64,000 nt of DNA from Ruditapes philippinarum (GCF_026571515.1 NW_026855894.1:124001-188000); one strand, 5' to 3'. Counted from the first letter of the stretch, positions 28-59,821 are shown. Program-made: numbers and translations. The notes: generated by a model from the sequence alone, not told the origin.

Positions 28-217
28 CCCATTAGAATAACTAGTCTACCTACAAGCAGAAATATACATGAAGACACCGATGCGCGGACTCTCGTTCACA
101 GTATAATCACCTATGACTACAATAATCCGGATCATGACAACGTCACATGCGTTGTTGTCACCAATGAAGAACCGACGCTCCTTGAATTATACCATAACGG
201 AAGCTTTAATCATAACT
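28..217 (+). CDS. Gene A exon (PIRITSLPT...HEDTDART...; first half of an X-type cadherin repeat)
   Basis: tttgcag acceptor, gtaagt donor; same 190-nt length as paralog exon 32205-32394. Confidence 0.9.
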
Positions 218-3200
218 GTAAGTATTTCACTAAGGAATAGCGAGGGCCTCCGTAAATGATTGGTTTTGGTTTCTGACTTGAGAACCTCTCATAGTTTTGA
301 AAAACACTCTACGATAAAAGTCAAGATGAACAGCCAAATCTGGCTTGAAATAATGTACTGTGGAAGAACTGAGGTCTCCCTCCACTTTTTATGATGAAAA
401 GAATTATTCATTTGACCTACACTTTTATCCTTTTTTCAGCATGGTTCATATACAAGAAGAGGTGCCAATATCCTGATTGCGGATACATCGATGCTAGTTT
501 TCTCTGTTTAGAAAACGTCGCCTGTTTGAACTATGACCTTGACAACGAGTATACAATGACGGTCAAATGTAACGATGCGTATGGTTCAGACGACGAGGAG
601 ACGTTCACGTTAAAGGTGACGGAGAATCAACCACCCGTGTTCAGCAATACTCCGAGTAAATCTATAAATTAAGATATTTATAAATTAAAGTATTTCTTTG
701 GTTTTACAAAATTCACGTACGCTGTCAGATAACCGTAACCACATGGCAAAATTTAATTGACAAAATACGAAAAACTCTATGCTGCGTTTTCTCAATTTGA
801 AAAGGAAGTTGTTCATTCATCTTCCATCTGTTAGAATACTAGTATAATAACATTTGTATATGAAAATGATAACATTATTCGTTTTTATACAGTTATTTAT
901 TTCATGTTAAGCAGTAAGATACACTGGTGATAACGTACATTTTAAATGCTGTTGTCACAGCAAACTAGTTTGTAACACGTCCAACACATTCCTCGAAATA
1001 TCCTTGAACGGACTGTGGACTAATTAAAAAGTGTAAATATTGCCGGAAAATACTAAATGATATGTGATACAAAAGTTGTTCATAAATCATTTAGGACGTT
1101 GCTGGTTTTGCCTTGTAACATCGTTTTCGATCAGTTTAAGGCCGTCTGCATTCTGTTTAAAGCTGTTGTGTTCCTAGTTACAAATTTCGCTCCTTAAACG
1201 TTGAATACAACATGAACTAATTTATCACAGGACAAGCTCGTTCGCAGACAGTTTTAAACGTAATTATATATCACGTCCCTAATGCGTTCAGATCGACATA
1301 GTAGTCACGTTCTGGCTTGATAGGTGTTTATCCTGAGCATGTTTCTGTAAGTCTAGTCAGACCGTTCAAACAGTTTTGATCAAACCAGCGACTTTTGCAA
1401 TAATCATGTCTCCACTGAAGAGATGGGCCTAAACAAACACGTTTTGTTGTTGTCTTTTTCTCTTCTTTGTTACTTTACTCAACCATCTCACAATATTTTA
1501 TTACATTTGATTTCGTTGATAAAATGATGTTTTATACCTTTTTAGCAACAATAACGATAAACACTGACAACATAGCACATTTAGACAACATATTCTCTAT
1601 CTACTACACGGACGCTGAAAGTGAAACACTTGACTATAACTACACCATATCACCAATTACACCATCATTGTTTGCTTTCGATGATCGTGGAAACTACAAC
1701 AGTAAGTATGTTACTTAGCAATAATACATCTATAAGAATATGGATGCTATATAGACAGGCTGTACACTATTGAAAGCGCAAGTTCTGTATGTTTGGTACT
1801 CGTTGCTTAAAGTATTGATTTCCCTTCAACTACAAATGATCTATTTCGAACTCAAGAAAGGCAAATTCTTTGTACATGATCAGGAGGTTAGGGGTTAAAG
1901 ATTTGTTAAGTCAATATCACAGCTGGCGTCCACTTAGCTAAAACTTTTACAGAGTTGCAAGGACTATTCCTTATAACATTTAGCGAGTGTGGACATAACA
2001 CTTTCTAATTAGTATTCTAAAATATAGATAATTTATTACAGTATTTGCTAAACCGACAAATGATGAGTGCATACCAAAATCCAAAATGCCAAAAGGTTAT
2101 TGTTTTACAGAATAATAAACTTGTTCCAACTAAAACGAGCTATTGAAAATATTCCAATACTAGTATCAAGTTATTCAGTGTAGCAATACCACGTGACCTG
2201 GACGTAATTTTTGGCATCATTTTCAAGACAAATATTGCTCGATTCGAAAAGGAAAATAGCCGTAAGTATTTTATTTCTGCACCTATTTCTTTTGGATATG
2301 CAACTCTGAAAAGTTTCATGTTTCTTCGCATTTGTAAGCAATTCTGAAAACTACTTTAAACTGTAGTCCAAATATTTGGCTTGGAACTGGTGCCATAATT
2401 GTCAATTGCAGAAAAAGTTCAGATTTACGCCATAAATAATTGCAAAATAAACATATTTTAGTAGGATTTTGCCTTCCGTACTCCCGGTTGATTATATAAT
2501 TACAACTTTTAAATCATGGCGTAGACCAGATTATACAAGAAAACAAAATAGCTTGCAACTGAAGTCCGCTCGTATACAAGCAACTTTCAAGGTTATACAG
2601 AGTGTTTGATAGAACGGCTCATATACTGAAGGAAAAACACTATTCGATGGCAAGCTTATATTTTTCTTCGAAGAATGGTGCATATCCCAAAGAAATCGGT
2701 GCAGAAATAAAATACTGACGGCTATTTTCCTTTTCGAATCGAGCAATATTTGTCTTGGAAATGATGCCAAAAATGACGTCCAGGTCACGTGGTATTGCTA
2801 CACTGTTATTATGTATTTTGCCTTAACAAATGTATTTTTTTGTACTCTGACTTTACTTTACCTATAAATATTTTCTTTTTCATGAACATTCAGGTAATCC
2901 AGCAAATGTAACCACAACAATATTTCAATGGGATCTTGTGAACAGTACATTTTCCATTACTTTCTGTGGCAGAGAGAGACGAAACATTGTCTGTTCTTCA
3001 TTTACTATTGATATTCGAGGTAAACCCACTATAACGTATACTTATAAATCTACACAGCCATGCATATTTGTACCATATATCATAGTGTTTCACAAATTGC
3101 TATTTAAGCACAATAGAATCTGGCACATGCTTAAAGCAATCATTATGAATTTTAGAAATAGAGGAGAAAGATAAGCTTTTGACCTGTTTGAATGCTCAAG

Positions 3201-6200
3201 TAATACGTTGGAAAGAGTTTGACAAATATTATGACTATGCCTTAAAAGTGATGTAAATCAATTCAAGATATATTTTGTCAAAATACACATATTTTGGCAA
3301 GAATTGTAAAGAGTGGTTGAAAATTGCACCATATCAGATTCTGTATATTTATAACAAAAAGGATTACCTTAAAATTGTGTATTGATTAAGTAGGAAATCC
3401 ATCATTCCAAGAGATTCTACAGATAAATCACTTTCCTTGACAGTGTACTTCCATTCTTAAACATGAATAAATGTCAATATATTTTGATTATTAATTAAAT
3501 AAACTGATTTAATAGACGTAAGTTTGTTGTATGTTTAGAATATTGTGGGCCAACACCTGTTTGCACGGACGCTTCTTCTACAATAACGGACCAGGAAGCA
3601 GCAGGAAGTGAGGTATTCCAAATTACTGTCACCGGAACTGGATACACACAACTTACTTACGTTATTATATCCGAATACCCGGACCTATTTTCTGTTGATC
3701 CATTCACAGGTAAACAGTGGTTGGAATTTTGCCAAGCACTATTTGATCAGATAATGTATCTTTGAGCCTAGCTATGAAATAAATTGGTACTTAATACAAA
3801 CTGAATGCAGAACCAAAATATCTTAGGCTAACATACACTTGCTTTTGAGTTTTTTTATGCTTTAGAATTTTGAAAGCTATTGAAACAATTCTTCAGAGTG
3901 ACAAGAAGTTCAATGAAACAGAAGAAGTAATCTGTCTGAACTTGCAATGTGTATTTGTTTGATATCTGTAACTAGTTTCTATATATAATTATTTAAGTAC
4001 TTACTACTATTACAGTTTTGTAAAATTAACATTGTTTCGTTTATTTTCACAAATTAAAATTATAAGTCAATTCATATATGTAAAAGTACAAATAAAAAAA
4101 GAACAGATTCTCTGCTGGTAAATGTGTCTCTCAAGTAACTGTGTTCGACAACTTGGCTATTAGTTTCCATTTCAATTTAAACAGGAAGTGTGACAATGGT
4201 TTCATCATTAGAAGCAACCAATCCACCAAACCCAAGCACCTACTCCCTCGTTGCGAATGTGTATGACACTGCTGCCTGTGCTCACGCAGCCTGCGCACTG
4301 AGCTTGGAAGTGACATTCACGAATAAGGTTCGTATGAATCTTTCAGTACCTTTTATGAACTGGTTCATACAAACCAAGCCTGCGATATTTTCAGTTTTGC
4401 TGTTTTGAACGTTCTCTATAGGATTTGTTCTGCAACATCAGTGTAATTTATGTCATGTGGAGGTTGTAAAAAGTCACCCCGTACATTTAATTAAAGATGT
4501 TACTTTCGATCCTTAAAGATCGTTAAGCGTTGTTTATACATGTCTGTGGTATTTTGTAATGTTCTAGTTGTTTGGGTTACAATATTCTTGCTTGAAAACT
4601 GTATAAGCACCATTAAGATATATTGCCTGCTTTTTAAATTTGTCTGTTGAAACCTTGTCAGTGATATGCAGTCTTCATTACCTCTGATCCCCTAGGGCAC
4701 ACGCATGTTTTCGTCAGGTGACCATATGCTGCTTTTGGTGGAATGGCACGAACTTGTCTTATAAACGGTTTCATGATTATCGCCTTGTGAAACCACTTGC
4801 AAATATATTAATGATTAAATGGTAACTTGGTGCGTAAACGGTAGCTGATACTTTCCAGTAACATCCATAAACAGGCTCAATCAAACCGAGCCTGCAACAT
4901 TTTCAATTTTGTCATTTTTAGGAGCTGTGTTTTCACTAATGAATTTGCCTTATCATGTTTGTCTTTTTTACAACGGTCGTACCACCTCACCGGCTTTCTT
5001 GGATAATTTTGTAAAATTTCATCCGAGTGAATGAATAATCATACACAACTTCTGAAAAAAGCCGTGAGATACAAATAACCATTAGACTCAATTGTCATGG
5101 TGAAATTTTGCTTTGATGTCGTACACTATTCAATAGAGAAAGTAACATCGGTAAGGGGGATCCTCGAGAACAATGAAACCAATGAAATAGTTGACAATTG
5201 CAATTTGGGTTTTAATATACCAGCTCATGAGATTTATCGTTATTTGCAATATAATTAATCCATCTAACTCGCATCAGCTTAAGCTATATCCAATTTAACA
5301 GTAGAGACTTTTTTCAGATATTCAAAACGTATTTAAAAAAGGTTAAGGAAGTTGTTTCCTTAAAAATGTCAACAATTGTTTAGTTTATATTTCACAACAC
5401 TTGCAAATATATTTAACAATTGTAAAATTGACATTTTAATATAAAGCCAAGCAATGGTCGCTCCAGATGCCTCTGTAATTGCTTGCTGAAAACTGCTATA
5501 ATCAAGTTAAAATTTATGTATGTAACTCTTTGTTCACATTTAAGGATATAAGCATAACCAACATGGCAAGTGTTAGCGTAAATATTCATGAGGACACGAC
5601 AGAATCTGTAACAATTGTCACCATAGCAACCTCTGATGCTAATACAAATGATGCCGTCACATGTGAGGTTGACGAGGCCGCCTCAACACCGGCCAATAAC
5701 CACATTTTCTTCGCTGTTGAAACTGATACTGATTCTAACGGTTTGTGATTTCTGTTTGAAATGTTCTGGTGCTAGGGGGCGTGTTCGGTAAATTGTTATT
5801 TCCAGTACCGTCCATGAATAGGCTAAATCAAAACGATCCTGCAACAATTGTAATTTTGCCGTTTCGGACTTTCTTTAAGATTTTATTTCTTTCTATCTTA
5901 TCAATTTATTTAACATTGCTTTGAATAAGTCTCTATAATACATGTATTTGCTTTGCATGTTGAAAACGCCTGTTATAAAAAGAACATAGAAAACATACAT
6001 GTGAATTGTATACACATTTTATTGCATTCCAACACTTAAACAAACAAAATAATTAAGAAACTTCGTCAAACTCCCATTTTCATTGATCTTATCCTTTTCA
6101 AATTCAGCATGTTGAATTTACCTAAATTATATATGATTAACTTATGCATTTTGCTTATGAATACCATTTTATATTATATGGTTATTAACTAATCGCGATG

Positions 6201-7090
6201 TATATTATATAATTTTGGAATTATCAGCGGGTCTGTCCCATCATTTCTTTATTAAAATATTTCACGATATCTTTCTTATTTATCAAGTGTAACATGTTAA
6301 CCATTGTATGAATTTACAGTGTTCCAGATTATAAGCAAAGAAGGGCCGGGTTTTGATTATGATGTTGCAGACACGTATACAATAGTGGTCGTTTGTGAAG
6401 ATAATTATGGTTCGTCTGACACAGCTACAGCAACGGTCTCTATTCTAGAGAACCAAATTCCCACAATGGATAACTTAAATGGTGAGTATTAAACAGATTA
6501 TATTCGTTTTTCAGTTCTTATTTTCTTTTCGGTTGGGAATTAACTCGCACTTACACAGTACAAAATACAAGAAACTTTATTTTATATCAGGTTACAAATA
6601 ACAAGAAACATTAGATAAAAAAGTATTTTTCCGACAAAACAAAAGGCATAAAACATATATTCCAAAATATAAACGATCAGAAAAGTAAAAACGTTTAAAG
6701 CTAGTAGCATGAAATAAAAGTAGCGTGATTGAGAATAACTTAACAATAAGATGTGTTAAATTGAAGCAAAATATAATAATTAAGGGACTAACAGTTCAAA
6801 AGTAACCTACTAGTGTAGTATAGAATGAGCTGACAATTTATATATGAACTCACTTTTTCACCTTAGAGCTTTGTTAGTGTTACAAAATATGTACTAAATG
6901 TTTTATCTTTTAAAATGCAATTCTTATGGATGATGTCATTGAAATTGATAATTACGTATATACTAAAAATGTAGTTACATTACATGTAATCATCATATTC
7001 AATGTAACTATTATTGAAATAAGTTTGGTGCATTTTTTAAAGTTGTTGAGTGCACTACTACTGCTTCATAATAATAATAATAATAATAAT

Positions 7091-7135
<45 letters not shown>

Positions 7136-10100
7136 TATAATAATAATAATAACAATCATTGTTATTCATAAAATCATGGTTATCATAAAATATTTTCAGC
7201 TGGAGATATTATCAATGTAGATCCTATGACTGTGAAGTCTGGGGCCATCATTTTTACGCTACAGACAACAGATGCTGAAAACGACCCCCTCCTGTATTCC
7301 TGTAATGTTACAGACAGCTTCGTTCCTCTACAGTGTTTGTCAGGTATATACAATATTTTTTATCAATGTTTGATAAGAACGGCAGTATGCATTGACATAT
7401 CTTGATTTTAAGAATTTGAAGAGTTGCCTTTTTCAGGAAGGTATCTGTATGCATAACAAATATGATAGGGTAATAAACCGAAAATATTCAGTAAAAGTAA
7501 ATCCTATGAACACTTTTATAATTTTTGTAAAAGTTGTTTCCCTTGTGTGCAAGTGTAGGCACTACCCAGTAATTTAATATCGATCATCTAAGATTTAGAT
7601 ATTAATTTCGGCTTCACCTGCATAATAAACAAAACTTTTAGATCTTTTAAGTTTGGTACCATACTCTGGTATAAAATAAAAAGTATTGTCGTGGTCTTAA
7701 AACAAACTTAGAACCTGGGCATGAGTGTCATATACTGTTATTAGAGAATAGTAATAATTAAGATTGTGTATTCTTCAAGAATAGTAAGAATTAAAAGTAT
7801 ATGTACAAAACGAATAGTCATATATCCACAGGCTAATAGAATATAACTATCCTTTTCTATCAGCTACATAAATTGCTTATAAGACCAATTGATGGTGTCA
7901 TATTTTATTTAGTATCAGTTACAAACTTATCGTACACTTATTCAATTCTCTTATGACTAATTAACTTTCACTTAACCCCTAGTAGTATGCTAGTGTTCGA
8001 TGGTAAAATATAAGAACGGTAGATTAAGGGTGAAACAAAGGTTACAAATAATGTATTGCATTCACTGACCAATCCAATGAAACGATGGTAACTTACTCTA
8101 AAGTTATCAGTTCCATTCAAAGCCTTTCGCGAGTAAACAAAAACGGCTCAATCTTTTTAAGTGGTCAGTACCGATGGAGGTTGTCATTGAAAGGCATGTT
8201 AAGAGTCAAAAAGTTATTTGTTTGCTTTAGATGGTGTCGTATCGTTAAAGAGAGATGTAAGAATACCAGATGAAGAGGGGGAAATGTATATCATTACTTT
8301 GTGCATAGAAGAAAATGTTCACACTCATGTGGTCTGTGAAAATCTCAACGTAAATATTTCATGTGAGTTCCTCCGCAATATTAGTAGTAAATTTTTATCA
8401 TCTTAATCTTGTAATTATATTTTTATTTCACAATTTGTCCATTAATTTATCCTCATTTTTTATTTTTATATAAGATTAAATCTGAAAATAGGGAAAACTT
8501 AAGGCTTTTAGAACCAATTATTCTTTACATATACATAAATGTTACCAAGATCAGATGTGCCTAAGTAGAAGCAATTAAATCAATTCTGGAGGCAAGCGTC
8601 TTTCAAGAGCATAATTGTATTGTAAAAATATCTTTTTTTTATTAAATAGCTTCAAAAACAAATCCTCAACTAAACAATCTGCCAGAAACAGTAAGTTTCG
8701 ACGAAAACTCAGCTGTTGGGACAACATTATTTACTGCAACAGTAGATGATCCAGATGCACTGGACGTGCATACATTCTCTATAACAGTTTATCCAAAATC
8801 TGCAACTTCAGCATTTTCACTTGATGCGAATGGTAAAGTAAAACTAATATTTTCTAGAAAATTAAGGATCGCAAAGTTATAAAAAATAGGGGAATCAACA
8901 ACAAAAAACATCAATACGATGCATGTTTAGGTCTTAATACTCAGAAACTGAAACAAACAGGCAAAGTTATTTGTTGTTATGTTACGATATAATTATATCA
9001 ATTCTTCATCCAGTTGTGAATACAGTTACCATTTATGAATAAGCACTTAAGGAACTAATGTCTCTAAATGGATTATTATTTCACAAAGCAAGAATGGTGT
9101 ACTTTGAACAAGACCTTCATTAAATATCAGTATATATAAGTAAGGAATTAAACATAATTGTAGGATATCTGACTCGGAGGATATGCATTAGAAAGGAATA
9201 AATAAACTGCCAGTTTTAAAATGTGTCATAGAAAAATGGTTTTCTTTCAGCCGGAGTTTTGACATTGCAAGAAGCTCTTGACTACGAGACATTGAATCAT
9301 TATGAGTTTTTGTTCAGTGTTAGAGATGTATATTTACCTGGACTGGAAGAGAAATACTTAAACCTCACTGTCACTGATGTCAATGAAGCTCCAGTACTTA
9401 CAATGTTTCAAACCACTATGAAACAATTGGAAAAATCAGAAATTTAAATGCCCTTGTTATGTTTTTTTTTTCTGGAAAAACTTGGGATTTTTGGAGGAGG
9501 GATGCTCGAAAAGTTTTTTATTTTATTTTATCTGTTTAAAAAACAAAAGTTAAAATAAAAGCTAAAAATTTACTGTTATTATTTTTGTCTATTTTTTTAA
9601 TTTAAAATTTTTGTTTTTAAAATCAAAAAAGGAAAAAAAAATTTTTCCAAAAATTTTCTTTCCCTCGTTTAAAATATTTCCACTTATCTTTTGGTTTTAT
9701 TTAAAAAACAAATATATTTTTTCCAATTTTCACCTATTGAGCTTTTTTCTGTATTTCCCTCTACCCGAAATTTTTTACAATTTTTAAACATTTTTTATGG
9801 GGAAATCTAAATTTTTTTGTTTTTTAAAATTTCCCATCCAAAGTTAACAATTTATTCGGGTTAATCTTTTCTTTAAAAAACATATTTTCTTTAATTTTAC
9901 AGACCGGGTTTTGGGGTTTCTTTTTTAAAATTTTTAGTACTGATGTGGGAAAAAGGGCAAAATATGAAATTTATCAAATTTTATCCGGGAAATTACATAG
10001 TTACTTTTTTTTTCGAGCGGAACCGGTTTAAACGTTTCGCCCCGGGTTGGGATTTTTTAAAAAGGCGTTTTTTTTTACCCCAAAACCCCAAAATTTCAGA

Positions 10101-12309
10101 TAAAGTGCTCAGCGGGTTGGGCTTTGCGATATTTAAAAAATTAATTTTACATTTCCTTAGTGGAATTTTTTCCCCGGTTTTAAGGGACAACATTGAAATA
10201 TTTTCAAATTTTTGTAAAACCAAAAATCTTTTTTGATCCTTTGTTTTTATAACAACCCCTGATAAAGATTTGGGGGATACGGAGAATTTTTTTTTTCGTA
10301 ATTGGTTTAAAATGGGGGTCAAAAAAACTTTTCGATTTGAGAACTGGGGAACTTTTTTTATCTAACTTTTTGATTGGAAGTATTTAATTTTTTCTTTTTT
10401 TCACTGTACAAGATAGACGGGGAATGATCCGAAAATGGACATGTTGAGTCAAAAATAAAAATTTTTGACATCGTTTAGATTTCCCCATTCCAAAGAAAGA
10501 AAGTGCAAATGTAACTTTGTACAAAAAATTGGTGTGTGTGGGGGGACAATTTTTGTTTTAGAGGGGTTTTCCCTTTTCTTCTTATTCCTCAAATTATATT
10601 TTGCGGGGGCTGAAAACTTACCAAAAAATGTCAAATAAAACCGAGACCCTAATAAAAAATTTTTTTTAAAAACAAAAAATGAAATTGCATGCTAGGCTTG
10701 ATATCATAATTTATTTAAATTTTTTTTGGGGAAAGATCGTTAAAACTTATAAAGCACAAAATTAAAATTGGGAAAGAGGGGAAAGGAAAAACCCCGTATT
10801 TTTTTTTAATGGTCAAAACAAAGTTCTTCTTATTTTTAAATTATTTCAAAAATTTAGTTAGTTAATTCTTTTTCCCCTTTTGTTGTTTTTAAACGTTTAA
10901 AGGGAATTTCAAGGGGCATGGATAAAACAATGGGAAAATAGAATGGGAAAAGGAAAATCCGTTTCGTTTGTTTTCTTTATTATTACAAAATAGCTTATTT
11001 TTAAAAACCTTTTTGTATCCAAACCCGTTAAAAGTTTAAAAAAAACCTTTTTGATGATTGCAATAATCTAAAATCACTTTTGGAAATTAAATTTTTGTTA
11101 AAAAAATGGATGTTTCGGCAATTTTTTTATTTTATTAAAATTACTATTTATTTTCTTCAAAGTATGATTGGCAATTTTTAAATTAAAAGATTTTTTATTT
11201 TCAGGTATGCCCCCCTCGAAAAATGGGGCCCCGCCCTTTTCCTTTAGGGAGCCCTTACCTTTAGCTATACCCCCTTTCCCTAAAAAAACAAACCCAGGGG
11301 CCCCTTGTGGGGTGAATATCCCCCAAAACCCGCAAAACGAAATTGAAAAATCCAAAATGTAAAAAACAAAAAGATTCAAAGATTTTTGGGGAAAAACTAA
11401 AAAAACAGTGCATAAATGAAGGCCCATAGCAAAAACAAAAACCCCTTCAAAATTTTTCCAAAAAAAATATATGTTTCCAAAAGCAGTCAAAATAGGTTGG
11501 AAAAGGGAAAAATATTTCAAATTTTAAAAATATGTATGGGAAATTTTTCCCCCGGGTTTTAGGTCAAGGGAAAAAGATGAAGGTTTGTCAATGTTAGGCC
11601 CACCCGACAAAAACAATCTTGATTTGGTAAATTTGGGGTAATGAGACAATTTTTGTAAAAACAAAAAATAAAAATTGGGAAGGGTACGTAGACAATCATT
11701 ATATCAAGGAACAGTACAACCAAATGTACTTGATTATATGTCCATTAGCTTAAAATATAATAATTTTAAAGCTAATTGTTTTTTGTGTCATCTTACATTT
11801 TCTAAAATAGTTACTCATTGGCAATATAGTAGAGCCATCTTTTAATACTACATGAATTGCGTTTTAGCAATTAGTTTGTATTGTGTATAAAGTCAAATGT
11901 TATTTGATTTATATTTTGTTACATTCATCACAATTAATATCGTTTTACAAGAAAAACAATAAAAGTGGAACAAACAATCAACACAGGATAAGTTTTAAGG
12001 TTTATTTAATGATGATAATGATAATATCATTTTGTTCAGTTGGTAGGTATCTCATATCGAGCTAATCAAATGTTTTAACCGTTTATTATAAAGCAAATAT
12101 TTCAACTTTCCGCAGAAAAAAAAACAACACATATTCATTTCTGAGGCATATTCGGCCTTTTTAAATTAATTTAATTTGATTTATATTTTGTTTACAAAAA
12201 GAAAAAAAATACAGCGTTCCCCTTTAATTGTTTATTTTCCTGTACTTTCAGTGACAGTTCAAAATATTTACCGGATATAGGTGAACCGGCATCTGCCATG
12301 GACTTTTAG
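28..12309 (+). CDS. Gene A: atypical cadherin-like (protocadherin/cadherin-related) type I membrane protein, 5' truncated by window edge; paralog of gene B
   Basis: Exons 28-217, 440-655, 1546-1701, 2894-3019, 3539-3709, 4185-4327, 5545-5740, 6320-6481, 7200-7343, 8231-8362, 8650-8832, 9251-~9438 splice in frame at GT-AG sites; cadherin motifs (ENQPPVF, FDYD, LDYE, DVNEAP, DDPD); garbled homologs of the TM and tail exons at ~9903-10660, ~10890-10960, ~11205-11636; intact last exon 12252-12309. Confidence 0.9.
440..655 (+). CDS. Gene A exon (WFIYKKRCQYPDCG...[12 protein letters not shown]) with Cys-rich insertion
   Basis: AG/GT bounded, 216 nt, matches 33057-33272. Confidence 0.9.
1546..1701 (+). 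CDS. Gene A exon ([13 protein letters not shown]...[10 protein letters not shown])
   Basis: AG/GT bounded, 156 nt, matches 34377-34532. Confidence 0.9.
2176..2805. mobile_element. Non-autonomous DNA transposon (MITE), ~125-bp TIRs, CAGTG termini, 5-bp TSD TTATT (hAT5-like)
   Basis: cagtgtagcaataccacgtgacctggacgt... mirrored by ...acgtccaggtcacgtggtattgctacactg; ttatt on both flanks. Confidence 0.88.
2894..3019 (+). CDS. Gene A exon (NPANVTTTIFQWD...[19 protein letters not shown])
   Basis: AG/GT bounded, 126 nt, matches 35331-35456. Confidence 0.9.
3539..3709 (+). CDS. Gene A exon ([10 protein letters not shown]...[11 protein letters not shown]); not in ORF track
   Basis: AG/GT bounded open frame, 171 nt, homologous to 36078-36251. 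Confidence 0.9.
4185..4327 (+). CDS. Gene A exon ([19 protein letters not shown]...ACAHAACALSLEVTFTNK)
   Basis: AG/GT bounded, 143 nt, matches 36957-37099. Confidence 0.9.
5545..5740 (+). CDS. Gene A exon ([19 protein letters not shown]...ETDTDSN)
   Basis: AG/GT bounded, 196 nt, matches 37459-37654. Confidence 0.9.
6320..6481 (+). CDS. Gene A exon ([14 protein letters not shown]...[11 protein letters not shown])
   Basis: AG/GT bounded, 162 nt, matches 39113-39274. Confidence 0.9.
7068..7152. repeat. (AAT)n microsatellite
   Basis: Direct reading; produces the spurious poly-Asn ORF. Confidence 0.95.
7200..7343 (+). CDS. Gene A exon ([14 protein letters not shown]...TDAENDPLLYSC...QCLS); not in ORF track
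   Basis: AG/GT bounded, 144 nt, matches 40272-40415. Confidence 0.9.
8231..8362 (+). CDS. Gene A exon ([16 protein letters not shown]...LCIEENVHTHVVCENLNVNIS)
   Basis: AG/GT bounded, 132 nt, matches 40565-40696. Confidence 0.9.
8650..8832 (+). CDS. Gene A exon ([24 protein letters not shown]...DDPDALD...FSLDAN); not in ORF track
   Basis: AG/GT bounded, 183 nt, matches 41397-41579. Confidence 0.9.
9251..9438 (+). CDS. Gene A exon ([17 protein letters not shown]...[10 protein letters not shown]); 3' end corrupted
   Basis: Canonical LDYE and DVNEAP motifs; homologous to 42983-43170; sequence degrades after ~9410. Confidence 0.85.
9903..10660 (+). other. Garbled copy of the large two-cadherin-repeat + TM exon of gene A
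   Basis: Collinear residual matches to 43473-44221 (gtactgatgt, ttacatag, gattgga, gatccgaaaatg, tgacatcgttt, aagtgca..ctttgtac, gaggggttt) with homopolymer expansions and frameshifts. Confidence 0.75.
11205..11636 (+). other. Garbled copy of the proline-rich cytoplasmic exon of gene A
   Basis: tttcag|gtat start and residual collinear similarity to 45429-45851. Confidence 0.6.
12252..12309 (+). CDS. Gene A terminal coding exon (DSSKYLPDIGEPASAMDF*)
   Basis: tttcag acceptor; same 58-nt length and phase as 46136-46193; shared D.SKY..DIG.P..AMDF*. Confidence 0.88.
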
Positions 12310-14584: not shown

Positions 14585-14791
14585 AGATGGTATCATTTAA
14601 CGACCCCGATACACAGTACCTAAATGAAAATGACGACGCTTCAATGACTTTGTGGAGTATTTCTGCAACGTGTTTTCCCTCTACTAATACATACTTTCTT
14701 GGAATAAAGACTGGAACAAATTCTCATACAGTAGCATGTGAGACGTGTACAGTTTCTTCAAACACAGCCCCAGGACTTCTCTATCTGTCAG
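14585..14791 (+). CDS. Gene B exon ([25 protein letters not shown]...[19 protein letters not shown])
   Basis: ttttag acceptor, gtaaat donor; resembles the first-half X-type repeat exons. Confidence 0.7.
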
Positions 14792-31826: not shown

Positions 31827-31874
<48 letters not shown>

Positions 31875-47196: not shown

Positions 47197-47447
47197 TTGC
47201 ACATCGACACAGTATTAGTCATATCGCGACATCCCAGCTTTACTGGTGGAGGAAGACCTAGGTGCCCTTCCGTGCATTATTTCAGGCACCATTGGGCACC
47301 TGAGGAGAACCACCGACGTTCCGTAAGCTAGCTGGATAGCTTCCTCATGTGAAAGACTCCAAAGTCCCTGTCGGGATTCGAACACACAGCGGTGAGGGGC
47401 AATTGGTTTGAAGTCAACGACCTTAACCACTCGGCCAAGGACGCCCC
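47197..47447 (-). mobile_element. tRNA-derived SINE, near full length
   Basis: Minus strand ggggcgtccttggccgagtggttaagg (A-box)...gttcgaatccc (B-box) followed by a non-tRNA body shared with other copies. Confidence 0.88.
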
Positions 47448-48179: not shown

Positions 48180-48405
48180 AGGGTCATCTTCGCCAGAGTG
48201 GTCGCTGGCTTCAAACCACTTTTCCCTCACCGCTGTGGGTTCGAATTCCAGTAGTGACTTGTGATTTTTTCGTGTGATGAAGCTAAACAGCTAGCTTACA
48301 GGACCTGGGTGGTTTTCGTCAGTTGCTCGTTTGTGCCTAGAATAATGCAAGGAGGAACACCTCAGATCTTCCGCCACGAGTTAAGCTAGAAAGGCGCCAT
48401 ATAAA
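48180..48405 (+). mobile_element. tRNA-derived SINE, same family as 47197-47447, diverged
   Basis: cctcaccgctgtgggttcgaat, cagctagcttac, aataatgca, aaagg/tcgccatat shared. Confidence 0.8.
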
Positions 48406-51148: not shown

Positions 51149-51224
51149 ATGAGATTTCGGAGATATTTGGACATTTTATTCGTTTTTATTCTGTTTACCA
51201 AGACGACGTTTGCTCAGGGTAATT
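51149..51224 (+). CDS. Gene C exon 1, signal peptide (MRFRRYLDILFVFILFTKTTFAQGN)
   Basis: Basic n-region, hydrophobic h-region, T-F-A cleavage-like site; gtaagt donor. Confidence 0.8.
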
Positions 51225-54200
51225 GTAAGTATTTCAATTAAAATCATTATTATATTTTCTTATATTATCATAACCAGAACGTTTATGATAAAATGTTGGT
51301 TTCTTATTCAGAACAGATTAAAAATTTTCCCCGATGGACATATATATATCATATTCCTTAGATTATTTTAAATTAGATAACATGCCATCAGAATATGCTT
51401 GTTCAATAATTATCTTATATACCTTATTTTACATCGGAAACACATTTTTCGCTTTTACGAAGCCGTGTCTTCAAACGTGAAAAATTTAACAATTTTATAC
51501 TGCTATAAGAATTTTCTTACATAATAGTATTCAAGCTTTAAAATACTCATGTATGATGTCATGAAATTAATAAAGGTGAATAATGGCACGCATTTGAAGT
51601 AGTTTTGCTTTTTTTCATACAAAACTTTGGACTACACAAATGCTTATCTTAGGACCGTGGTCCTTACCAAAGTTTTATGTGCCTGTTAACAATATTTTGA
51701 TTTTTGTAAAAATCACAATTCTTATGTTTTTATATTTGAGATCAACCATATACGCAGTTATACATTTGTATGTGGTCAAAGTGTATTATTTTCTTTTATT
51801 TTAACAAATAATATGCTTAGTACAGTAATATTTGCTCAAAATGGCTTTAAAATATTCATAACAGCTGTTAGTGAAAATGCACCTAAGCTTCTATCTTTCC
51901 AATTTTTGTTTATTATATATATTTTAAGATAACTTAAACGTTTAAATTTTCTTAATGAAAATGTCATTTAATAAGTGTCTGAAATATAGGAATGTGAACA
52001 GGTAAAGTTACGATTTCGTTGAACAAATATCTCGGTACATTTAACCACATTTACCATGTGTTGATTAACAGATGAGTTGAGAGCATTTTCGTTGAAAAGA
52101 AATTGATTGAAACGCCAACTGAAAAAAGCACCCCCTTTAACAGAATAACAGACAGAACTCTTTTTTGTTTTTAAAATCGTCAATCTTACAGAAGTAACAC
52201 AAAATCTATTTTAAATTAAAATGCGTCTTCGATATTTATGTATGAACGGAGAAATATGATAAAGTAAATGAGTGTTATTTTATATCAATTTTTTAACATT
52301 GTTGCTATAACTGTTAATACTGAAAGCGAACTATGACTTTGACATATTAAAAAGATGCTTTGATATTTTTAAACATCATTTCTGCTGTATTTCTGCATTT
52401 GACCAAAATTGGATTAACTTGAACTGTTGATTAATACCACATGTAAAAGATATATGTGTTATATGTCGTTATTTCCCCATCCAGATAAGAATTACATAAC
52501 TTTTTAATATTATATTTCAGCATTTTATTATGAATTCTTATATGAAAAATCTTTATGGCCTAATTCTGTTCTGAAAACTCGTTTCTGTTGTTTTTTTTTA
52601 CTTGCGACAATGACATGTAATTTGCTATAACGTTTTATTCAGACAAAAATTATGTACTGCTTAATCAAAATGAGGTTGTGATGATGGCTGCCTTTATTGT
52701 TTTTAGATAATTTTCCATGTTTAAATTCATTTCAGCGTAAATCATGCACGAAAATTTGTCATAAATTATGATTCTATTCAATTCTGTTATTTAATTTTAA
52801 AGCAGCATGCCTGTATATATGTATTAGTTGTTACGAAATTTGAAATAAACTCATGTTACCGAATTTGCACTTCTACGTGATATAAGGCTTAATTTCAACA
52901 AAAATTCCCTAAAATACTAAACGTTTGGAGATGTTTCTCTTAATCTGTTAGTGACGGGGTTAATTGGCGGTGTTGATAATTATATCAATTTTTGCACACA
53001 AAAAATTGTATCTCTCACCTGAATGCGTTAACACTTTTTAAACTATAAATGACTTGTATAAAGTTTATTTCTGGAAGATCAATTTTATTCATATGAAGGT
53101 GTGCTGCTTTAAGCGTAAATTGCAATCATAGGCGGGCTACTTTAAGCGTAATTTGTAATTGAAGACGTGCTGCTTTAAGCGTAATTTGTATTTAAAGGCG
53201 TACTGCTTTATTTGTAATTTGGGATCAAACGCCAGCAATTATTAAGTATTAACAATAATTTTTTATCAAATAAATATACCATAGTTGATCAAAGTCATAA
53301 AAGTTCTATTGAAACTTAATTATGTACAAATTATTGGAATTTTACAGTAACAGCGAAATGTATATGTTTTATTATAATTTATCTCTAGTAAAGCGGGTTG
53401 CTTAAACCCCATCTTCATATGTCTAAACTACTAGTATTACTTTTGTAGTTATGAATATTTTGACAGGTTAAATTCCTCTCTATTAACGGATATTTGTATG
53501 GTTATATTGGATACATTATAATAATAGAAACAAACGTTTATTAACGGCCAAAATATCAGTTAGGAATCTTTATTAACGAATTTATTATATAGCAAACTTT
53601 TGTTTTAAAGGAAAACATGAAATTACCTTATTTCACAACAGCCGTGTATATAGCTTATATCAACGCCATGGTTATCCAACGAGAAGCGCCATAACAAACT
53701 TGCAGTATTCAACTGCGTCCGGATATCGACTTTTTAATTTACTTGTACATTGTAAGCCCTTATATGAGTTTGACCACAGCATATTTAAGATGATTTTACA
53801 ATTGTTAACACTGATTTCATTTCAGCTTGTACTGACGACAGCACAGCCGGTCCCGATGATCCACATTCATTTGACAAAGCTTTTGACGCTGACAAAGGTA
53901 TAGATAGACATTACGTCATATAGTGTTTATGAATATTATAATTAACTATGAATGATAATTAACTGTAAATACGTATAAAAGTCCTAATTCATTTATTGAA
54001 TTAACCGTGATCAGTTTTCATTTTAAGAAAACTACTGTGACACCAACATATGACAATATGCACTAACAATCAGAGGACAAATTACAAAACCAACACATAT
54101 TGTCCAATAAATCCAAAACAAAAGAAAAGTTACATTATATTTCATTAATGAAGCAATCACTAACTATTTGGCACCGCCAATATTTATAACTCTCTTCCTG

Positions 54201-57200
54201 ATATCAATAATTAAAGCTGGTAGCATACTTAAAATAAGTCGTTTTGATTAATGTTTACATCGTGTTGTTGAACTTGAATTTTAACAAAGGGTCTACCGTG
54301 GAAATAGGAAGAAATGCATTTCCAAGTTTTATGTCATCCCCAGTTTTGGTATGTATGGTAAAATAAATTTGTATGCTCTTTAATTAATCTGTCTGTGGTG
54401 TCATCCATCCATCCATCCATCCATACATATATCTATATTATTTACTTCTCTTGTTTTAACAGGATATGGTTACGTAGTATATGGTGACTTGTACAGGTTT
54501 GATTGTTGTGGTACGGTGAAAAGATGGGATTTTTCCATTGGTGACAACGGTAAAATAGAGCTACAAATATGGCGACCTGTCGACAAAAAAGGCAAAATAT
54601 TCAAACTAATTGGGTTCAATGAATACACCGTAACAAGTAAGTTCATAAATTGATTTTGGGATTTACTGCATACCAATTCTGCTTGAAATAGTATTGCACG
54701 GTCGTGCATTTTTAACGTGACGTCATTTGCGTTATTCATACAAAGCGTAAAGACGTTATTTAGCGTATTGAAAATAATATTTAGTGTGAGTTTGCATATT
54801 GTAACTATTGTGACTTGGCTTCTTATTACAGTGATTGTTGTTGTGAACGTTGCACTATAAGCGCGGCAATTCTTCTAGTCTCTCTGTAAACAGTATCTTA
54901 ATGTTTGTGCTAAGTTGAATGATGTATTTGTAAGGCTTCTTTTTTATTCAATTTATTGAAATGGTTGAAAAAATAGGCTCTCATCACATAATTTCATCCA
55001 GCTAGTTCAATAAATTTATCTTACTTCTTAATACAGGTTTACTCAAATTTTTATTTTATGTAATGAATTTAAATGGAATATTAATCTTAATTCGTAATAT
55101 ACTCATTAATTTCTTTTATGTAATGAAGTAAAATAAAAAAAAATAACATAAATTTAGAAAATAATAAATAAATAATTAAATAATAAAATAAATAAATAAA
55201 TATAAAAATAAATAAATAAATTTATAAATAAATAAATCTATTTTGTAAAGATGCACCTCGATACACTTTTCATTACTTTGTAAAAATATATTGATATTAA
55301 TATTATTTCATTATATAAAATATGAAGCACATCCACTCTCTCAATGGGATTATTATACATTACACTAGTTATTTTTCCTATCAAAAAATGATTATCTAAA
55401 ATTTTTACTTAAGATGAAAGAGTTTGCTTTTTTTCTCAAGTTGCTTGAAATGAATACTTCATCATCAATTACCGACAGCATGATTATACTTAACCCCGAC
55501 ACTTTAAATATTCACTTAAAATGAAATGAAATTCATTGAATTGTTTAGGCTATTCCTTATTTTCTTTCCCACATTAATGTTATTGCCGTTCTTACTGTAT
55601 CGCCCAGTTGTATCTAAGCGATCAAGTATTGCCCCGGAAAAATGCTCGTGTGTCCACTACATCAAATCATTGAAATGTATAAAGAAAGTAATGATGTTAG
55701 ATGATGTACCATTAAAATGTCAATTCAATATCAAACGTTGCCACCAATAAAGAATGTTGTTCCGCACGGGAAGAATAAGTTTTATTGCCGTCGCATTATA
55801 AAGTATTGACGAAAATGTACTTTAAATTTCAAGACCTGGGGTTTTGTAAATTTGTGTGTTCCAATATAATTATATATAATTGAAATAAAATCCTGTATCC
55901 GTTATTTCAAATATTTTAGATTAATTATCTATGATCAAAATTCAAAATGCATTTCAGATACAGTACTTTCAATCATTTTTGCAAGATTAGCAGTGATTTT
56001 ATAACGTGTAATATATAACAACTACAAAGTGGTAGCAAACCGAAAGTAGAGATAAAAAAACGCAACAATTTTAAGGCAAATATGATGTATCAATACAATT
56101 ATATACAAAATATAACGAGATTCTAATGTCACACGTGCATTAGGCATTAAATAAGTTAAACCTTAAAAATAAATGTAAATACTTTAATGAATTGTTTAAA
56201 TAAATACCCGTTATGAAACTAGACATTTTTCCTTATTATTCCCACAACATGATGTATAATAGATCATATGTTATTATGTTTTTATTTCTGTACAGATAAA
56301 AATAGAAAAAGTGGCTTTGTAACCTTTGATGTCCCAGATAAAGAACGTTTGTCTACTGAAGAAGATGACGTCATTGGTTGGTAAGTAAAATAATAGATAA
56401 CATGATATATGGCTTCAAAAGTAACATTAAAATTCTATATGAAAAATTCAAATGCTTAAATATTGCATTAAACCTTAACATGATTATTAAGATTAAAAAA
56501 ATGAATAAAAATATGTGGATATATGTAAATGACTTAAAAACAAAAAAAAAAAAAAAAAAACCAAAAGAGAAGAAAGAAAACTCGAAAACAAACAAACAAA
56601 CAAACAAACAAACAAACAAACAAACAAACTAGAGTCTATAATGAAAATCGATGTTTCTGAAAGTCTCACAATCGTACATGTTATGGAATACTGTCAAAAT
56701 GGTTTGTTGCATAAACGAACGATACAATTGTATTTATAACCGTAACTCTTTTATAATAAACGTTTATATTTATTTTAGATGATTAGTTAGTTAAGTATAA
56801 AGATCTAGAATACGGTAATTGAATTAAATGTTTTGTTGTGTGTATCATCATAGTTCTTAAATGATATTGAAGTATACGTGGCAGTGTGTGAGTAATAATT
56901 CTTGAAGTGAAATGTTAATATTGGTGTCAACTTTATACTTGTTTTTGTTTTGCTCTCAAGGTACGCTCCCGGGGACTCACTGATTGAGTATACCGACGGG
57001 ACTTCATATGACGGTATATGGAAAGTTGCCCACGATGATAATCTCAAAGTCGGAGACTCTGTAGATTTTAGCGGAGGTCTTGACCAAGGGTCAAGAACGT
57101 ACGGAATTCAGGCGACATTAGCACCAAGTAAATATATTTTTACTATTAGAGAAAATCGCACAGTTTTAAAGTGTATGCATGACCTAACGTTGTGGCTATA

Positions 57201-59821
57201 GTACGTAGGTAAAACCATTTTCATTATCATTTTGTTATTAGCTATTTTGTTTAATATTTTGAAGACAATAATCAATTCAAGCTATAATCTTTGCAAAATG
57301 AGATATCAGTAAAAAAGGATATAATGCATATACATTATGAATGTATATGCATTATATGACTTCATGACTTTCCGTTTGAATGATCGCTAAAAAACGGGGG
57401 ATGATCTGTTTAGGCAGAACCACTAAGCTCTCTAAGAATAGGATCGAGTCATGAGTATGCCAAGTCATACACGTACACAGTTGGTATATTTGTATTAAAT
57501 GCAAATACATGTTATACATTTTCCAGACACAGCTCCAAAATTTGATCCAATGCCGGATAAGAAAATCAGCATGGATATCAACGTGGGGACTACAATTTAT
57601 ACGGTAAAGGTAGATGACGCGGATCCAGCTGATGTGGCAGATTTAAAGATGGAAATGACTACTAAAAATGATTTCTTTATGTTCAATACCCAGACAGGTA
57701 CTATCTCTATTTATGTGCACTTCATGTAAAATTTTAGCCTGCCAATTGGATCTTCCCAGCTTTTGGATGTTAGAATAATTTTATTTCCTTTCAATATTTA
57801 AAGTGTATCTATATTAAAATATTTTGATATTGTAGAAACTCATATAAAACACCGTCTATAGAAAAAGAGCATTTCAATTGCGACTGCGAATTCGATTAGG
57901 AATTTCAATGAAACATTCATCAAAAGCCTGCCTGAAGCTAACATATAGACAATCTTAAATCTGTAAGGAAAGCTCTTGATAGAAATTGTCATAAAAGAAT
58001 TTTTCCGTGGAGATAAAATTTGATTATATTTTACCAGGACTTGTTTAAAATAATCACAAAAGAAAACAACCGTTAACGCAAGAGAACGCCTTTTTATTTT
58101 CAAAATAGTCATAATAAATAAATAATTAAATAAATGCATAAATAAATGAATAAATAAATATAAATGTCCCAACCCCTTCCCGCTTAAAAACCGTACATAC
58201 ATTTTGTTTTCAATTGTTTAATTCTCAAAATGCTCTTATTCGCAATAAACTGCATGTTCAGTTATCTGTTGATAATAAAAACATGTTTCTATAAATGTTT
58301 ATTAAACATCCATTTACGAACCCCAGGAGATGTCATAGTGCAATCGACGATAACTGTTCCAGTAGGCGGACAAACAGTCACACTTGACTTCAAGGTAACT
58401 GATCATTGTGGAGCCGAAGGCACCGGGTCTCTACAGGTCCAGATCGACTACGTTGGCGACCCCAACACAACGCCCACTACCACGAAGGCTAAGACCTCTA
58501 AGACAAGTCCAAAGGTAAAAACTACAATAACTGATAAAACTACCACCGATGTGAAAACTACAAAAGAAACTAAAATCACTGAAACATCTGTTGCCCCTGT
58601 TGCAACAGACAAAAATACAGACAAAAATGATAAAACAACCGCCAAACCTGACCTCTCTACGGACCAGGTAAGTAATAACAGAGGGATGGTTGTGTATCTT
58701 AAATTTACTAATTTGCGACAGACATTTCTACGTAAATATAACAATATGATGAATGTAAGAGAAAATGTCATTAGATTCATTGTAATATAACAAAATAGCA
58801 ACAATTCGATTACAAAGTCAAACGATATGTTGCACTTAAATTAAAACTTAATATAACAATTTTTCATATATCTTATAATAGAAATATCCTGCTATACATT
58901 GTTGTCAATGATAAGGTAAACGGATGAAGCGACTTCGGACTTTGAACGGTCTTTTTTTCTGTCAAAAATCACGTGGTATAAGTTGTCAGTCATGTGCGAA
59001 GAAAATGGTTATTGCTGGTTAGTTATCCAGGAACTTCAGCGGATTATGTGATCTGGCCGCCATATTATAACCGAAAATCTATTAAAATTGGGGTAACACC
59101 CGAATATACAGAACAAACAAACAAAAATAAAAATAACGCGTTCAAATTGTTATAATAAATCAATGATTTTTATTATTTAAGAATTAACAAGCCAAAATAT
59201 TATTTCTTTTATATGTGAAAAAGAATTCATACTTAACATTTACGACATTATCATTTAAGGACCCCTCAAATGGCACGATGAGTGCTATGACTGGTGGATC
59301 ATCTGTAGGTATGTACACTTTATGGTATATTTAGACATTAAATGATATAAAATATGTACATTTGACGTAATACAGTCAGTCAGTCGGTCAGCCAGTCAGT
59401 CAAACATGTATATTAGTTTTTTTATGTAATCGACAAGAGAACGCATACAAATATTTATTTTGTTTATATGTTTTTGAGACTCGCATGAGGTTCATAGTAC
59501 ATGTCTTCAAATCCTATCTACTATATTACAATTCAATGATGCTGTTCATTCAAATTCTCAAATTTAGATGCTGCGTTGATTGGTGGTATTGTTGCTGGAA
59601 TTGTCGGACTGATTATTATTATCGTGGTAACAGTTGTGTGTGTGGTAAACAAGAAAGCAAAAGTGAGACCATCGGGTAAGGACCCAGAGAAAGCTAATAA
59701 CGCTTCTAAAGACAATGCAAAAAATGACGCCAAAGACAAGCCGAGTCCAACGGATAAAAAACCGCCAAGCGACTCAAAGTCAACAATGAATGGAAAACCA
59801 CATGTAAAGGATAAAGGATAA
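51149..59821 (+). CDS. Gene C: 462-aa type I membrane protein; signal peptide + unrecognised N-terminal domain + single cadherin repeat + Thr/Lys-rich mucin-like stalk + TM + Lys/Asp-rich tail
   Basis: Nine exons 51149-51224, 53826-53897, 54463-54636, 56296-56380, 56961-57127, 57527-57697, 58327-58667, 59260-59308, 59568-59821 sum to 1389 nt and splice in frame from ATG to TAA. Confidence 0.88.
53095..53226. repeat. 33-bp minisatellite, 4 units
   Basis: gaaggcgtgctgctttaagcgtaatttgtaatt consensus. Confidence 0.8.
53826..53897 (+). CDS. Gene C exon 2 (CTDDSTAGPDDPHSFDKAFDADK)
   Basis: tttcag / gtatag, phase 1-1, open. Confidence 0.8.
54463..54636 (+). CDS. Gene C exon 3 (YGYVVYGDLYRFDCCGTVKRWDF...LQIWRP...FKLIGFNEYTVT)
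   Basis: aacag / gtaagt, phase 1-1, open; absent from ORF track. Confidence 0.88.
56296..56380 (+). CDS. Gene C exon 4 (KNRKSGFVTFDVPDKERLSTEEDDVIGW)
   Basis: tacag / gtaagt, phase 1-2. Confidence 0.85.
56587..56629. repeat. (AAAC)n microsatellite
   Basis: Direct reading. Confidence 0.9.
56961..57127 (+). CDS. Gene C exon 5 (YAPGDSLIEYTDG...RTYGIQATLAP)
   Basis: caag / gtaaat, phase 2-1. Confidence 0.85.
57527..57697 (+). CDS. Gene C exon 6, first half of cadherin repeat (TAPKF...VGTTIYTVKVDDADPAD...FMFNTQT)
   Basis: ttccag / gtacta; NxAPxF, GTxIYTV, DAD motifs. Confidence 0.88.
58327..58667 (+). CDS. Gene C exon 7, second half of cadherin repeat plus Thr/Lys-rich stalk
   Basis: cccag / gtaagt; FKVTDHCG then PNTTPTTTKAKTSKT... 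Confidence 0.88.
59260..59308 (+). CDS. Gene C exon 8 (DPSNGTMSAMTGGSSV)
   Basis: ttaag / gtatgt, phase 0-1, needed to bridge exon 7 (phase 0) to exon 9 (phase 1). Confidence 0.8.
59568..59821 (+). CDS. Gene C exon 9: TM helix (LIGGIVAGIVGLIIIIVVTVVCVV) and charged cytoplasmic tail
   Basis: tttag acceptor; ORF 59576-59821; stop TAA. Confidence 0.9.

What the first reader, a model, noticed from the sequence alone, without database searches (positions are those of the whole stretch)
28..59821. Tandem cluster of three non-classical cadherin-family receptors: two long paralogs plus a short mucin-cadherin
Seen: three co-oriented genes, A and B (B ~11 repeats; both with tails ending AMDF*) and C (one repeat, mucin-like stalk). 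None has a catenin-binding domain, EGF/LamG modules or the single-exon ectodomain of vertebrate clustered protocadherins. Established: the vertebrate brush-border adhesion complex pairs CDHR2 with the mucin-containing CDHR5, and tip links pair CDH23 with PCDH15. Inference: this may be a lineage-specific heterophilic linking or recognition system (microvillar/ciliary links or allorecognition) encoded as a linked cassette.
Basis: partly seen in the sequence, partly recalled or inferred. Interest (0 to 1): 0.75.

Follow-up and report, generated by a model that had tools for sequence, protein, structure and literature searches.

The report
Clam cluster of atypical cadherin receptors
Three neighbouring clam genes are lengthened or shortened versions of one little-studied family of cadherin-like surface proteins; they do not match the known gut-microvillus linking pair, and what they bind is untested.

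Summary
The three co-oriented genes are real. The window is Manila clam DNA: C matches RefSeq LOC132744735 exactly, and B's 3' part matches LOC132744737 at 1017 of 1018 aligned residues. A is partial, and its 3' exons lie in error-ridden sequence.

C's relatives form a family built as head + six position-specific cadherin repeats + membrane helix. A/B carry those six repeats in order, lack the head, and add a duplicated distal block. C keeps the head and first repeat on a Thr-rich stalk. All three therefore look like members of one modular family.

C fails the CDHR5 tests: no N-terminal cadherin repeat, one repeat rather than four, no tandem mucin unit, no PDZ-type end. B orthologues in Mercenaria and Mactra keep a hydrophobic xDF C-terminus. 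B- and C-type genes probably share a chromosome in Mercenaria; adjacency was not testable.

Likeliest function, by inference: A/B are ~45-50 nm glycosylated, scaffold-anchored surface rods, and C displays a binding head. A/B-C binding is unsupported but not excluded. Ten literature searches found no description of this family.

The parts
28..9438 (+). Gene A, 12 readable exons, 5' end upstream of the window; repeats E2-E3-E1-E2-E3-E4 of the family
   Evidence: Splices to 669 aa without a stop; profile order; donor of the last exon is lost where the noisy sequence begins
9924..10652 (+). Gene A exon for E5, E6 and the membrane helix, in homopolymer-smeared sequence that cannot be read in frame
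   Evidence: Local DNA alignment to B's exon: 505 identities, score 391 against a best of 119 in 20 shuffles; run counts
11205..11612 (+). Probable cytoplasmic-tail exon of A (weak)
   Evidence: Alignment starts exactly at B's acceptor-equivalent position, but score 62 is within the range of 100 shuffles (best 83)
12252..12309 (+). Gene A last exon, ends AMDF*
   Evidence: 43 of 57 bases identical to B's last exon, no gaps
14585..27129 (+). Gene B repeat R1: exons 14585-14791 and ~26920-27129, the second with frame breaks; signal-peptide exon not found
   Evidence: tblastn to P0001/P0002 N-termini; three-frame reading; search for a leader exon
28277..46193 (+). Gene B, R2-R11, membrane helix and tail ending AMDF*; 19 exons modelled plus a 20-codon exon at 44881-44940
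   Evidence: 1288 aa open; extra exon 100% identical to P0001; 1017 of 1018 aligned residues identical to P0001 from residue 771
43473..44221 (+). B's largest exon: E5, E6 and the membrane helix
   Evidence: Pfam Cadherin E 3.6e-14, 2 stretches; 100% to P0001 and 71% to Mercenaria P0002
51149..51223 (+). Gene C signal-peptide exon (end approximate)
   Evidence: 25 of 25 residues identical to the P0007 N-terminus
53826..57127 (+). Gene C head domain, 4 exons; no Pfam family
   Evidence: HEAD profile 127 bits on P0007 31-192; Atlas structural look-alikes TM 0.78-0.80 in sponge and actinobacterial clusters and 0.61 to DUF4082
57527..59821 (+). Gene C: one E1-type cadherin repeat, 86-aa Thr/Lys-rich stalk, membrane helix, Lys/Asp-rich tail
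   Evidence: E1 profile 72 bits; Pfam Cadherin E 8e-4, below the curated cut-off; composition; 436 of 436 modelled residues identical to P0007

Best explanation
A local cluster of one modular family of atypical cadherin-like membrane proteins whose commonest full form is signal - head domain - E1..E6 - membrane helix - short tail. SHOWN: A/B carry E1-E6 in register, lack the head and have a duplicated distal (E1)E2E3 block that predates the Veneridae-Mactridae split. C has head + E1 and a Thr-rich stalk in place of E2-E6. A and B group by species and share near-identical silent sites in two exons, as expected from duplication with patchy gene conversion. INFERRED: A/B stand about 45-50 nm out from an apical membrane as N-glycosylated, disulfide-braced rods. 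Only their membrane-proximal linkers have Ca2+-type motifs. They are held by a PDZ scaffold through the conserved hydrophobic-Asp-Phe end and act as spacers or lateral tethers on microvilli or cilia. C presents the head, a probable ligand-binding module, on an O-glycosylated stalk. The genes are neighbours by descent, not necessarily as binding partners.
For: Profiles built from 22 family rows (venerid and Pinctada rows left out) give E2-E3-E4-E5-E6 in order in 4 of 120 hits, all bivalve (P0001, P0002, P0157, P0170). Profile-profile comparison: probability 99.4, E 6.7e-22, in register over E1-E3. C's repeat shares both intron positions and phases with A R6, B R6 and B R3. 25 of the 150 listed relatives of C have HEAD-E1-E2-E3-E4-E5; 7 of these were outside the training set. 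C-terminal AMDF/ALDF/ALDF in Ruditapes, Mercenaria and Mactra. 24-30 N-glycan sequons and 38-49 Cys per ectodomain, against 3 and 11 in family member P0046. A Ca-type linker motif at 14 and 13 of 25 rows for the two proximal linkers, and 1, 0 and 0 of 25 for the three distal ones. The head also occurs beside VWA, TSP1, SUEL, C-type lectin, sushi, SRCR and ApeC domains. Precedent: nine-repeat C. elegans CDH-8 is needed for 37.5-nm unlinked bristles on microvilli (PMC9214534, passages).
Against: No expression, localisation or binding data. The E1 and E3 scores on A/B are modest (15-41 bits), and R1-R2 are not assigned. The family's juxtamembrane profile does not hit A/B. C's repeat does not group with A/B R6 in the E1 tree, which is mostly unresolved (6 of 28 branches well supported), so a single local ancestor is not shown. 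The mid-repeat phase-1 intron also occurs in other repeats. A+B is supported in one tree (97/97) and unresolved in the other. The linker count used one strict pattern. The head's fold rests on the Atlas model only; my own structure job never returned. The PDZ reading is motif knowledge recalled, not tested.
Confidence: 0.55

Rival explanations
1. One reading: A/B and C form a heterophilic link like CDHR2-CDHR5 or CDH23-PCDH15, encoded as a cassette; the C head could stand in for EC1 as the binding tip.
For: B- and C-type genes lie on records of identical length in Ruditapes (261,548) and Mercenaria (97,832,188). Long plus short architecture, a PDZ-like end on A/B, and a length near 50 nm. C is conserved at 67% in Mercenaria.
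Against: C has no N-terminal cadherin repeat, one repeat, no tandem mucin unit (485 of 1000 shuffles match its periodicity) and no hydrophobic C-terminus. The distal linkers of A/B lack Ca-type motifs. Common ancestry explains the linkage. Same chromosome is weak evidence.
Confidence: 0.1
2. The head+6-repeat family, including A/B and C, is a molluscan expansion related to vertebrate CDHR3/CDHR4 and works on ciliated epithelia such as gill and mantle. This is compatible with the best explanation and would name the family.
For: Nearest Atlas clusters by features for full-length member P0046 are CDHR4 (0.80) and CDHR3 (0.78). Six repeats and expression in ciliated cells for CDHR3 are recalled. 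Cadherin domains are enriched in gill and mantle-rim transcripts of a mussel (PMC5549309, passages), though not these genes specifically.
Against: Atlas scores under 0.9 are leads only; shuffled proteins reach 0.8 a third of the time. CDHR3 is not among the best 60 PDB hits shown for any of three profiles, which were dominated by long multi-repeat chains. No CDHR3/4 sequence was available for a direct comparison.
Confidence: 0.2
3. A diversifying recognition locus (allorecognition or immunity), varied by repeat-number change, exon conversion and alternative 5' ectodomains spliced onto B's stem.
For: RefSeq isoform P0001 joins about 775 residues absent from the window, with an extra repeat block, to B's exon at 33057. 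Silent-site divergence between A and B ranges from 0.04 to 0.60 over 11 exon pairs. A second C-like sequence, P0009, is 96% identical. The head co-occurs with lectin and complement-type domains.
Against: Orthologues keep the same 11-repeat layout and 52-68% identity across Venerida. No hypervariable segment was shown. P0001 may be an annotation chimera caused by the frame breaks and noisy sequence in A and in B's 5' exons.
Confidence: 0.1
4. A is a decaying pseudogene or an assembly duplicate, so the cluster holds only two working genes.
For: A's membrane exon cannot be translated, and no A-like protein of 807-2569 aa appeared among the 120 hits listed.
Against: 12 exons splice without a stop, and synonymous changes outnumber or roughly match replacements in most exon pairs. 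The damage is homopolymer inflation that also affects introns, and the last exon in clean sequence is intact. A and B differ by 15% of residues and their introns do not align, so A is not a second haplotype of B.
Confidence: 0.1

Closest known systems
CDHR2 (PCDH24)-CDHR5 intermicrovillar adhesion complex
   Same: Non-classical cadherins, one long and one short with a Thr-rich stalk; A/B have a likely PDZ-binding end.
   Different: CDHR2 has 9 EC repeats plus MAD10; CDHR5 has 4 EC repeats, a tandem mucin repeat and a PDZ motif; they bind mostly EC1 to EC1. C has a non-cadherin tip, one repeat and no such end. No sequence-level closeness: CDHR2 ranks 59-60th among PDB hits of P0002.
CDH23-PCDH15 tip link
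   Same: Cadherin repeats; automatic annotation often labels bivalve proteins 'cadherin-23' (PMC9923487 passages).
   Different: The two named vertebrate CDH23 proteins shown have no E2-type repeat and no family order; identities are 24-28%. One study reports CDH23 as deuterostome-specific and PCDH15 as absent from C. gigas (PMC10734073).
C. elegans CDH-8 microvillar nanobristles
   Same: Invertebrate non-classical cadherin of similar predicted length, linked to spacing rather than linking (PMC9214534). A functional analogue for A/B.
   Different: No homology test was run; location of A/B is unknown.
CDHR3/CDHR4
   Same: Nearest Atlas clusters by features for a six-repeat family member.
   Different: Scores are lead-level only; CDHR3/4 have no head domain (recalled); not tested directly.
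Clustered protocadherins (vertebrate, cephalopod)
   Same: Tandem array of cadherin genes; one RefSeq isoform suggests upstream exons spliced to a shared 3' part.
   Different: Ectodomains here use about two exons per repeat, each gene has its own membrane exon and tail, and the shared-3' isoform may be a chimera.

Membership tests
Cadherin superfamily (atypical) | Two or more extracellular cadherin repeats, one membrane helix, short tail without catenin motifs | tested here: met
   B orthologues: Pfam Cadherin E about 1e-33, 5 stretches, no other family above its cut-off. Applies to A/B.
Cadherin superfamily (atypical) | At least two repeats (definition in PMC10734073), applied to C | tested here: not met
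   One repeat, below Pfam's cut-off; C is a cadherin-domain protein by descent.
Classical cadherins (type III/IV) | Catenin-binding tail; EGF/LamG modules | tested here: not met
   No such Pfam family in P0001 or P0002 at E up to 0.5, or in the tail exon.
CDHR5 | Four EC repeats with an adhesive EC1 at the N-terminus | tested here: not met
   Head domain at the tip, one repeat.
CDHR5 | Tandem 31-aa Thr/Ser/Pro mucin repeat | tested here: not met
   Stalk is 45% T+S+P but aperiodic in P0007 (485 of 1000 shuffles reach it); P0008 has only a 6-residue period (2 of 1000).
CDHR5 | C-terminal PDZ-binding motif | tested here: not met
   C ends in Lys-Asp-Lys-Gly in both clams.
CDHR2 / CDH23 | Canonical Ca2+-binding EC1-EC2 linker at the tip | tested here: not met
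   The first linkers of P0002 and P0157 lack the motif; only the last two resemble it.
IMAC or tip-link-like heterophilic pair | Direct trans binding and co-expression | not testable with these tools
   No expression data; the complex predictor was not available.
   Same record length in two clams; positions not available; no Mactra C orthologue was found.
Clustered protocadherins | Single-exon ectodomain of 6 repeats | tested here: not met
   16 or more ectodomain exons in B.
CDHR3/CDHR4 | In-register homology of six repeats and phylogenetic grouping | tested here: inconclusive
   Atlas 0.80/0.78; not among the PDB hits shown; sequences not obtainable.
Head + E1-E6 family (defined here) | E1-E6 repeats in order | tested here: met
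   A (to E4), B, P0002 and P0157.
Head + E1-E6 family (defined here) | Head domain followed by E1 | tested here: met
   C: HEAD 127 bits, E1 72 bits. A/B orthologues have no head.
DUF4082 (PF13313) | Pfam profile match of the head | tested here: not met
   Not among Pfam matches of the 66 members at E up to 0.01 (25 of 27 families shown); only a predicted-structure likeness, TM 0.61.

The most novel reading that the evidence does not exclude
Molluscs carry an undescribed modular cadherin receptor system with an unnamed ligand-binding head. In venerid clams the head and the long stem are carried by separate adjacent genes whose products assemble into one link or receptor, while long-range splicing and exon-by-exon conversion tune ectodomain length and sequence, giving a protocadherin-like diversity generator built from multi-exon repeats.
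Probability: 0.08. Interest if true: 0.78.

Novelty: new variant of a known kind. Interest (0 to 1): 0.42.

Why it matters
Many bivalve proteins auto-named 'cadherin-23' or 'Fat 4-like' may belong to families like this one. A position-specific definition (head, E1-E6) gives a way to re-annotate them. The head is a ~165-aa extracellular module with no Pfam family, with look-alikes from sponges to bacteria, and it sits among lectin and complement-type domains, so it is a tractable target for a structure and a ligand screen. If the family is related to CDHR3/4, bivalve gills would offer a model for ciliary cadherins. The locus itself does not reveal a new adhesion mechanism on present evidence.

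Tried and rejected
Complex prediction of the A/B tip with the C ectodomain: tool not available, no verdict. Structure of C: job accepted but unfinished, so no fold search was run; no model of an A/B protein was obtained. Cluster look-ups for names and taxa could not be made, so the 148 unnamed relatives of C have no taxonomy, and 'molluscan' rests on the named members (Ruditapes, Mercenaria, Mactra, Pinctada, possibly Patella). PDB profile searches did not discriminate subfamilies and showed no hit to the head among the best 60. Fission of one ancestral gene into C and A/B: not supported by the E1 tree. A as a second haplotype of B: rejected. Further hidden family exons: none among 1539 open frames. 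Rfam: 0 matches. Pfam on 5 stray ORFs: nothing above cut-off. Literature: ten searches gave no paper naming four tested LOC ids (0 hits) and none in the listings that describes this family. Subscription journals are mostly absent from the library and no supplements were read, so expression tables could mention these genes.

Full report
Source and observation. The window is 32% GC eukaryotic DNA. B's largest exon is 100% identical to Ruditapes philippinarum LOC132744737 isoform X2 (P0001) and 71% to a Mercenaria protein (P0002). A C exon is 100% identical to LOC132744735 (P0007) and 82% to Mercenaria LOC123559263 (P0008). Exons with GT-AG ends splice into open frames of 669 aa (A), 1288 aa (B from its third found exon) and 436 aa (C). 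The C model equals P0007 at 436 of 436 residues; B equals P0001 at 1017 of 1018 aligned residues from P0001 position 771. A and B are 85% identical and their introns do not align. Both end AMDF*.

Limits of the sequence. A begins upstream of the window. From about 9420 the sequence turns to homopolymer-smeared text: A's membrane exon has 55 runs of four or more bases against 11 in B's copy, and it aligns to B's exon only as DNA (score 391, best of 20 shuffles 119). A's last exon, in clean sequence, is intact. I read this as unpolished assembly, which is an inference. B's second found exon has frame breaks, and no leader exon for B was found. P0001's first ~775 residues are not in the window and contain an extra repeat block; the model is either a chimera or a long-range splice.

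C's residues ~31-192 are not cadherin and match no Pfam family. The Atlas model of this part resembles sponge and actinobacterial hypothetical proteins (TM 0.78-0.80) and DUF4082 proteins (0.61). A full-library search with P0007 gave 185 hits at E up to 0.001, of which 150 were listed. Among those 150, 25 read HEAD-E1-E2-E3-E4-E5, 16 HEAD-E1, 11 HEAD-E1-E2 and 48 a single HEAD (the profiles were trained on 22 of these proteins, and 7 of the 25 were outside the training set). Among 38 selected hits the head also sits beside VWA, TSP1, SUEL, C-type lectin, sushi, SRCR, ApeC and astacin domains.

A/B belong to the same family. I built one profile per repeat from 22 of the 25 rows of alignment A2, leaving out the two venerid-order rows and Pinctada. 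They assign B as E2-E3-E1-E2-E3-E4-E5-E6 (20-80 bits), A likewise to E4, and Mercenaria P0002 and Mactra P0157 the same way. C reads HEAD-E1; Pinctada P0170 reads ten E2 then E3-E6. Across all 120 hits, the order E2-E3-E4-E5-E6 occurs in 4, all bivalve; an E2 best match occurs in 6, one of them a weak unnamed hit. A profile-profile comparison of 12 family members with the four A/B orthologues gives probability 99.4, E 6.7e-22, in register over E1-E3. C's repeat has the same two intron positions and phases as A R6, B R6 and B R3, although that mid-repeat intron also occurs in other repeats. Against a tight local origin: C's repeat does not group with R6 in a poorly resolved tree, the family's juxtamembrane profile misses A/B, and R1-R2 stay unassigned.

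History. Distal and proximal E2-E3 copies separate at 100/100, so the internal duplication predates the Veneridae-Mactridae split. Mercenaria has a second copy (P0158). In the proximal E2-E3 tree A+B group at 97/97 and the Mercenaria pair at 91/85; in a longer-region tree A and B were unresolved. Exon identity between A and B ranges from 67% to 95% over 12 exons (chi-square 77, 11 df). The silent-site share ranges from 0.04 to 0.60 over 11 exons, one with an indel left out. This points to exon-limited gene conversion or independent duplications. P0001 and P0007 lie on records of one length, as do P0002, P0158 and P0008; I infer the same contig or chromosome, and gene order could not be seen.

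How it may work. A/B ectodomains hold 24-30 N-glycan sequons and 38-49 cysteines. A Ca-type linker motif is found at 14 and 13 of 25 rows for the two proximal linkers and at 1, 0 and 0 for the distal three. Three species keep a hydrophobic-Asp-Phe end in an otherwise variable tail, which fits a class II PDZ ligand (recalled). Scaling from nine-repeat CDH-8 and its 37.5-nm bristles (PMC9214534, passages), eleven repeats give about 46 nm. I infer a scaffold-anchored apical rod that spaces or tethers microvilli or cilia. C's stalk is 29% Thr and 15% Lys over 86 aa and probably lifts the head above the membrane to bind an outside ligand. None of this is shown. I put the ancestry at about 0.85 and the function at about 0.35.

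Comparison. CDHR2 has 9 EC repeats and CDHR5 has 4 plus a mucin-like domain (PMC8691648, passages). The CDHR5 mucin unit is 4x31 aa and both proteins end in PDZ motifs (PMC10916864, passages). Their contact is mostly EC1 to EC1 (bioRxiv 10.64898/2026.05.11.724279, abstract and section 7). C fails each of these. One study finds CDH23 deuterostome-specific and PCDH15 absent from C. gigas (PMC10734073, passages and section 5). The Atlas places a full family member nearest CDHR4 and CDHR3, at lead-level scores of 0.80 and 0.78; PDB searches could not test this. Passages of PMC13564323, PMC5549309 and PMC9923487 mention mollusc cadherins in shell, gill, mantle and colour studies without identifying this family. 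All other papers were seen as search listings only. No complex or structure model was obtained.

Verdict. A real cluster of an apparently undescribed, modular atypical-cadherin family with an unnamed head domain. The heterophilic-cassette idea is unsupported, though not excluded. New variant of a known kind; interest 0.42.

Noticed in passing
window 9420-11700 and about 12650-14200: Homopolymer-inflated stretches typical of unpolished long-read consensus; they may hide B's signal-peptide exon.
   Followed up: partly
P0001 residues 1-775, joined to window 33057: RefSeq isoform X2 uses 5' sequence absent from the window, with an extra repeat block (14 repeats), and skips A's exons and B's first eight found exons: chimera or long-range splicing.
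   Followed up: partly
window 1546-1701 / 34377-34532 and 6320-6481 / 39113-39274: A and B are nearly identical at silent sites in these two exons (6% and 4%, against 19-60% elsewhere), suggesting exon-limited gene conversion.
   Followed up: yes
P0009 versus window 57527-57697: A 96%-identical C-like sequence lacks the first half of the cadherin repeat encoded by this 171-nt in-frame exon: possible exon skipping or a model error.
   Followed up: no
window 61756-63024: Broken transposase-like reading frames between imperfect inverted repeats (17 of 21 bases match); the mariner-like label is recalled from motifs, and Pfam gave no match.
   Followed up: partly
window 20865-21106: 242-bp imperfect palindrome (83% identical to its own reverse complement), MITE-like.
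   Followed up: no
window 18750-19920, 20150-20610, 41708-42030; dispersed copies near 27200, 38430, 38670 and 63100: Tandem arrays of 340, 165 and 170 bp and a ~130-bp dispersed repeat in introns.
   Followed up: no
P0170, P0010, P0060, P0161, P0012: Other proteins expand different units of the family: E2 x10 (Pinctada), E1 x8, (E4-E5)n (P0060, and possibly the Patella 'cadherin-23'), and (HEAD-E1) x3.
   Followed up: partly
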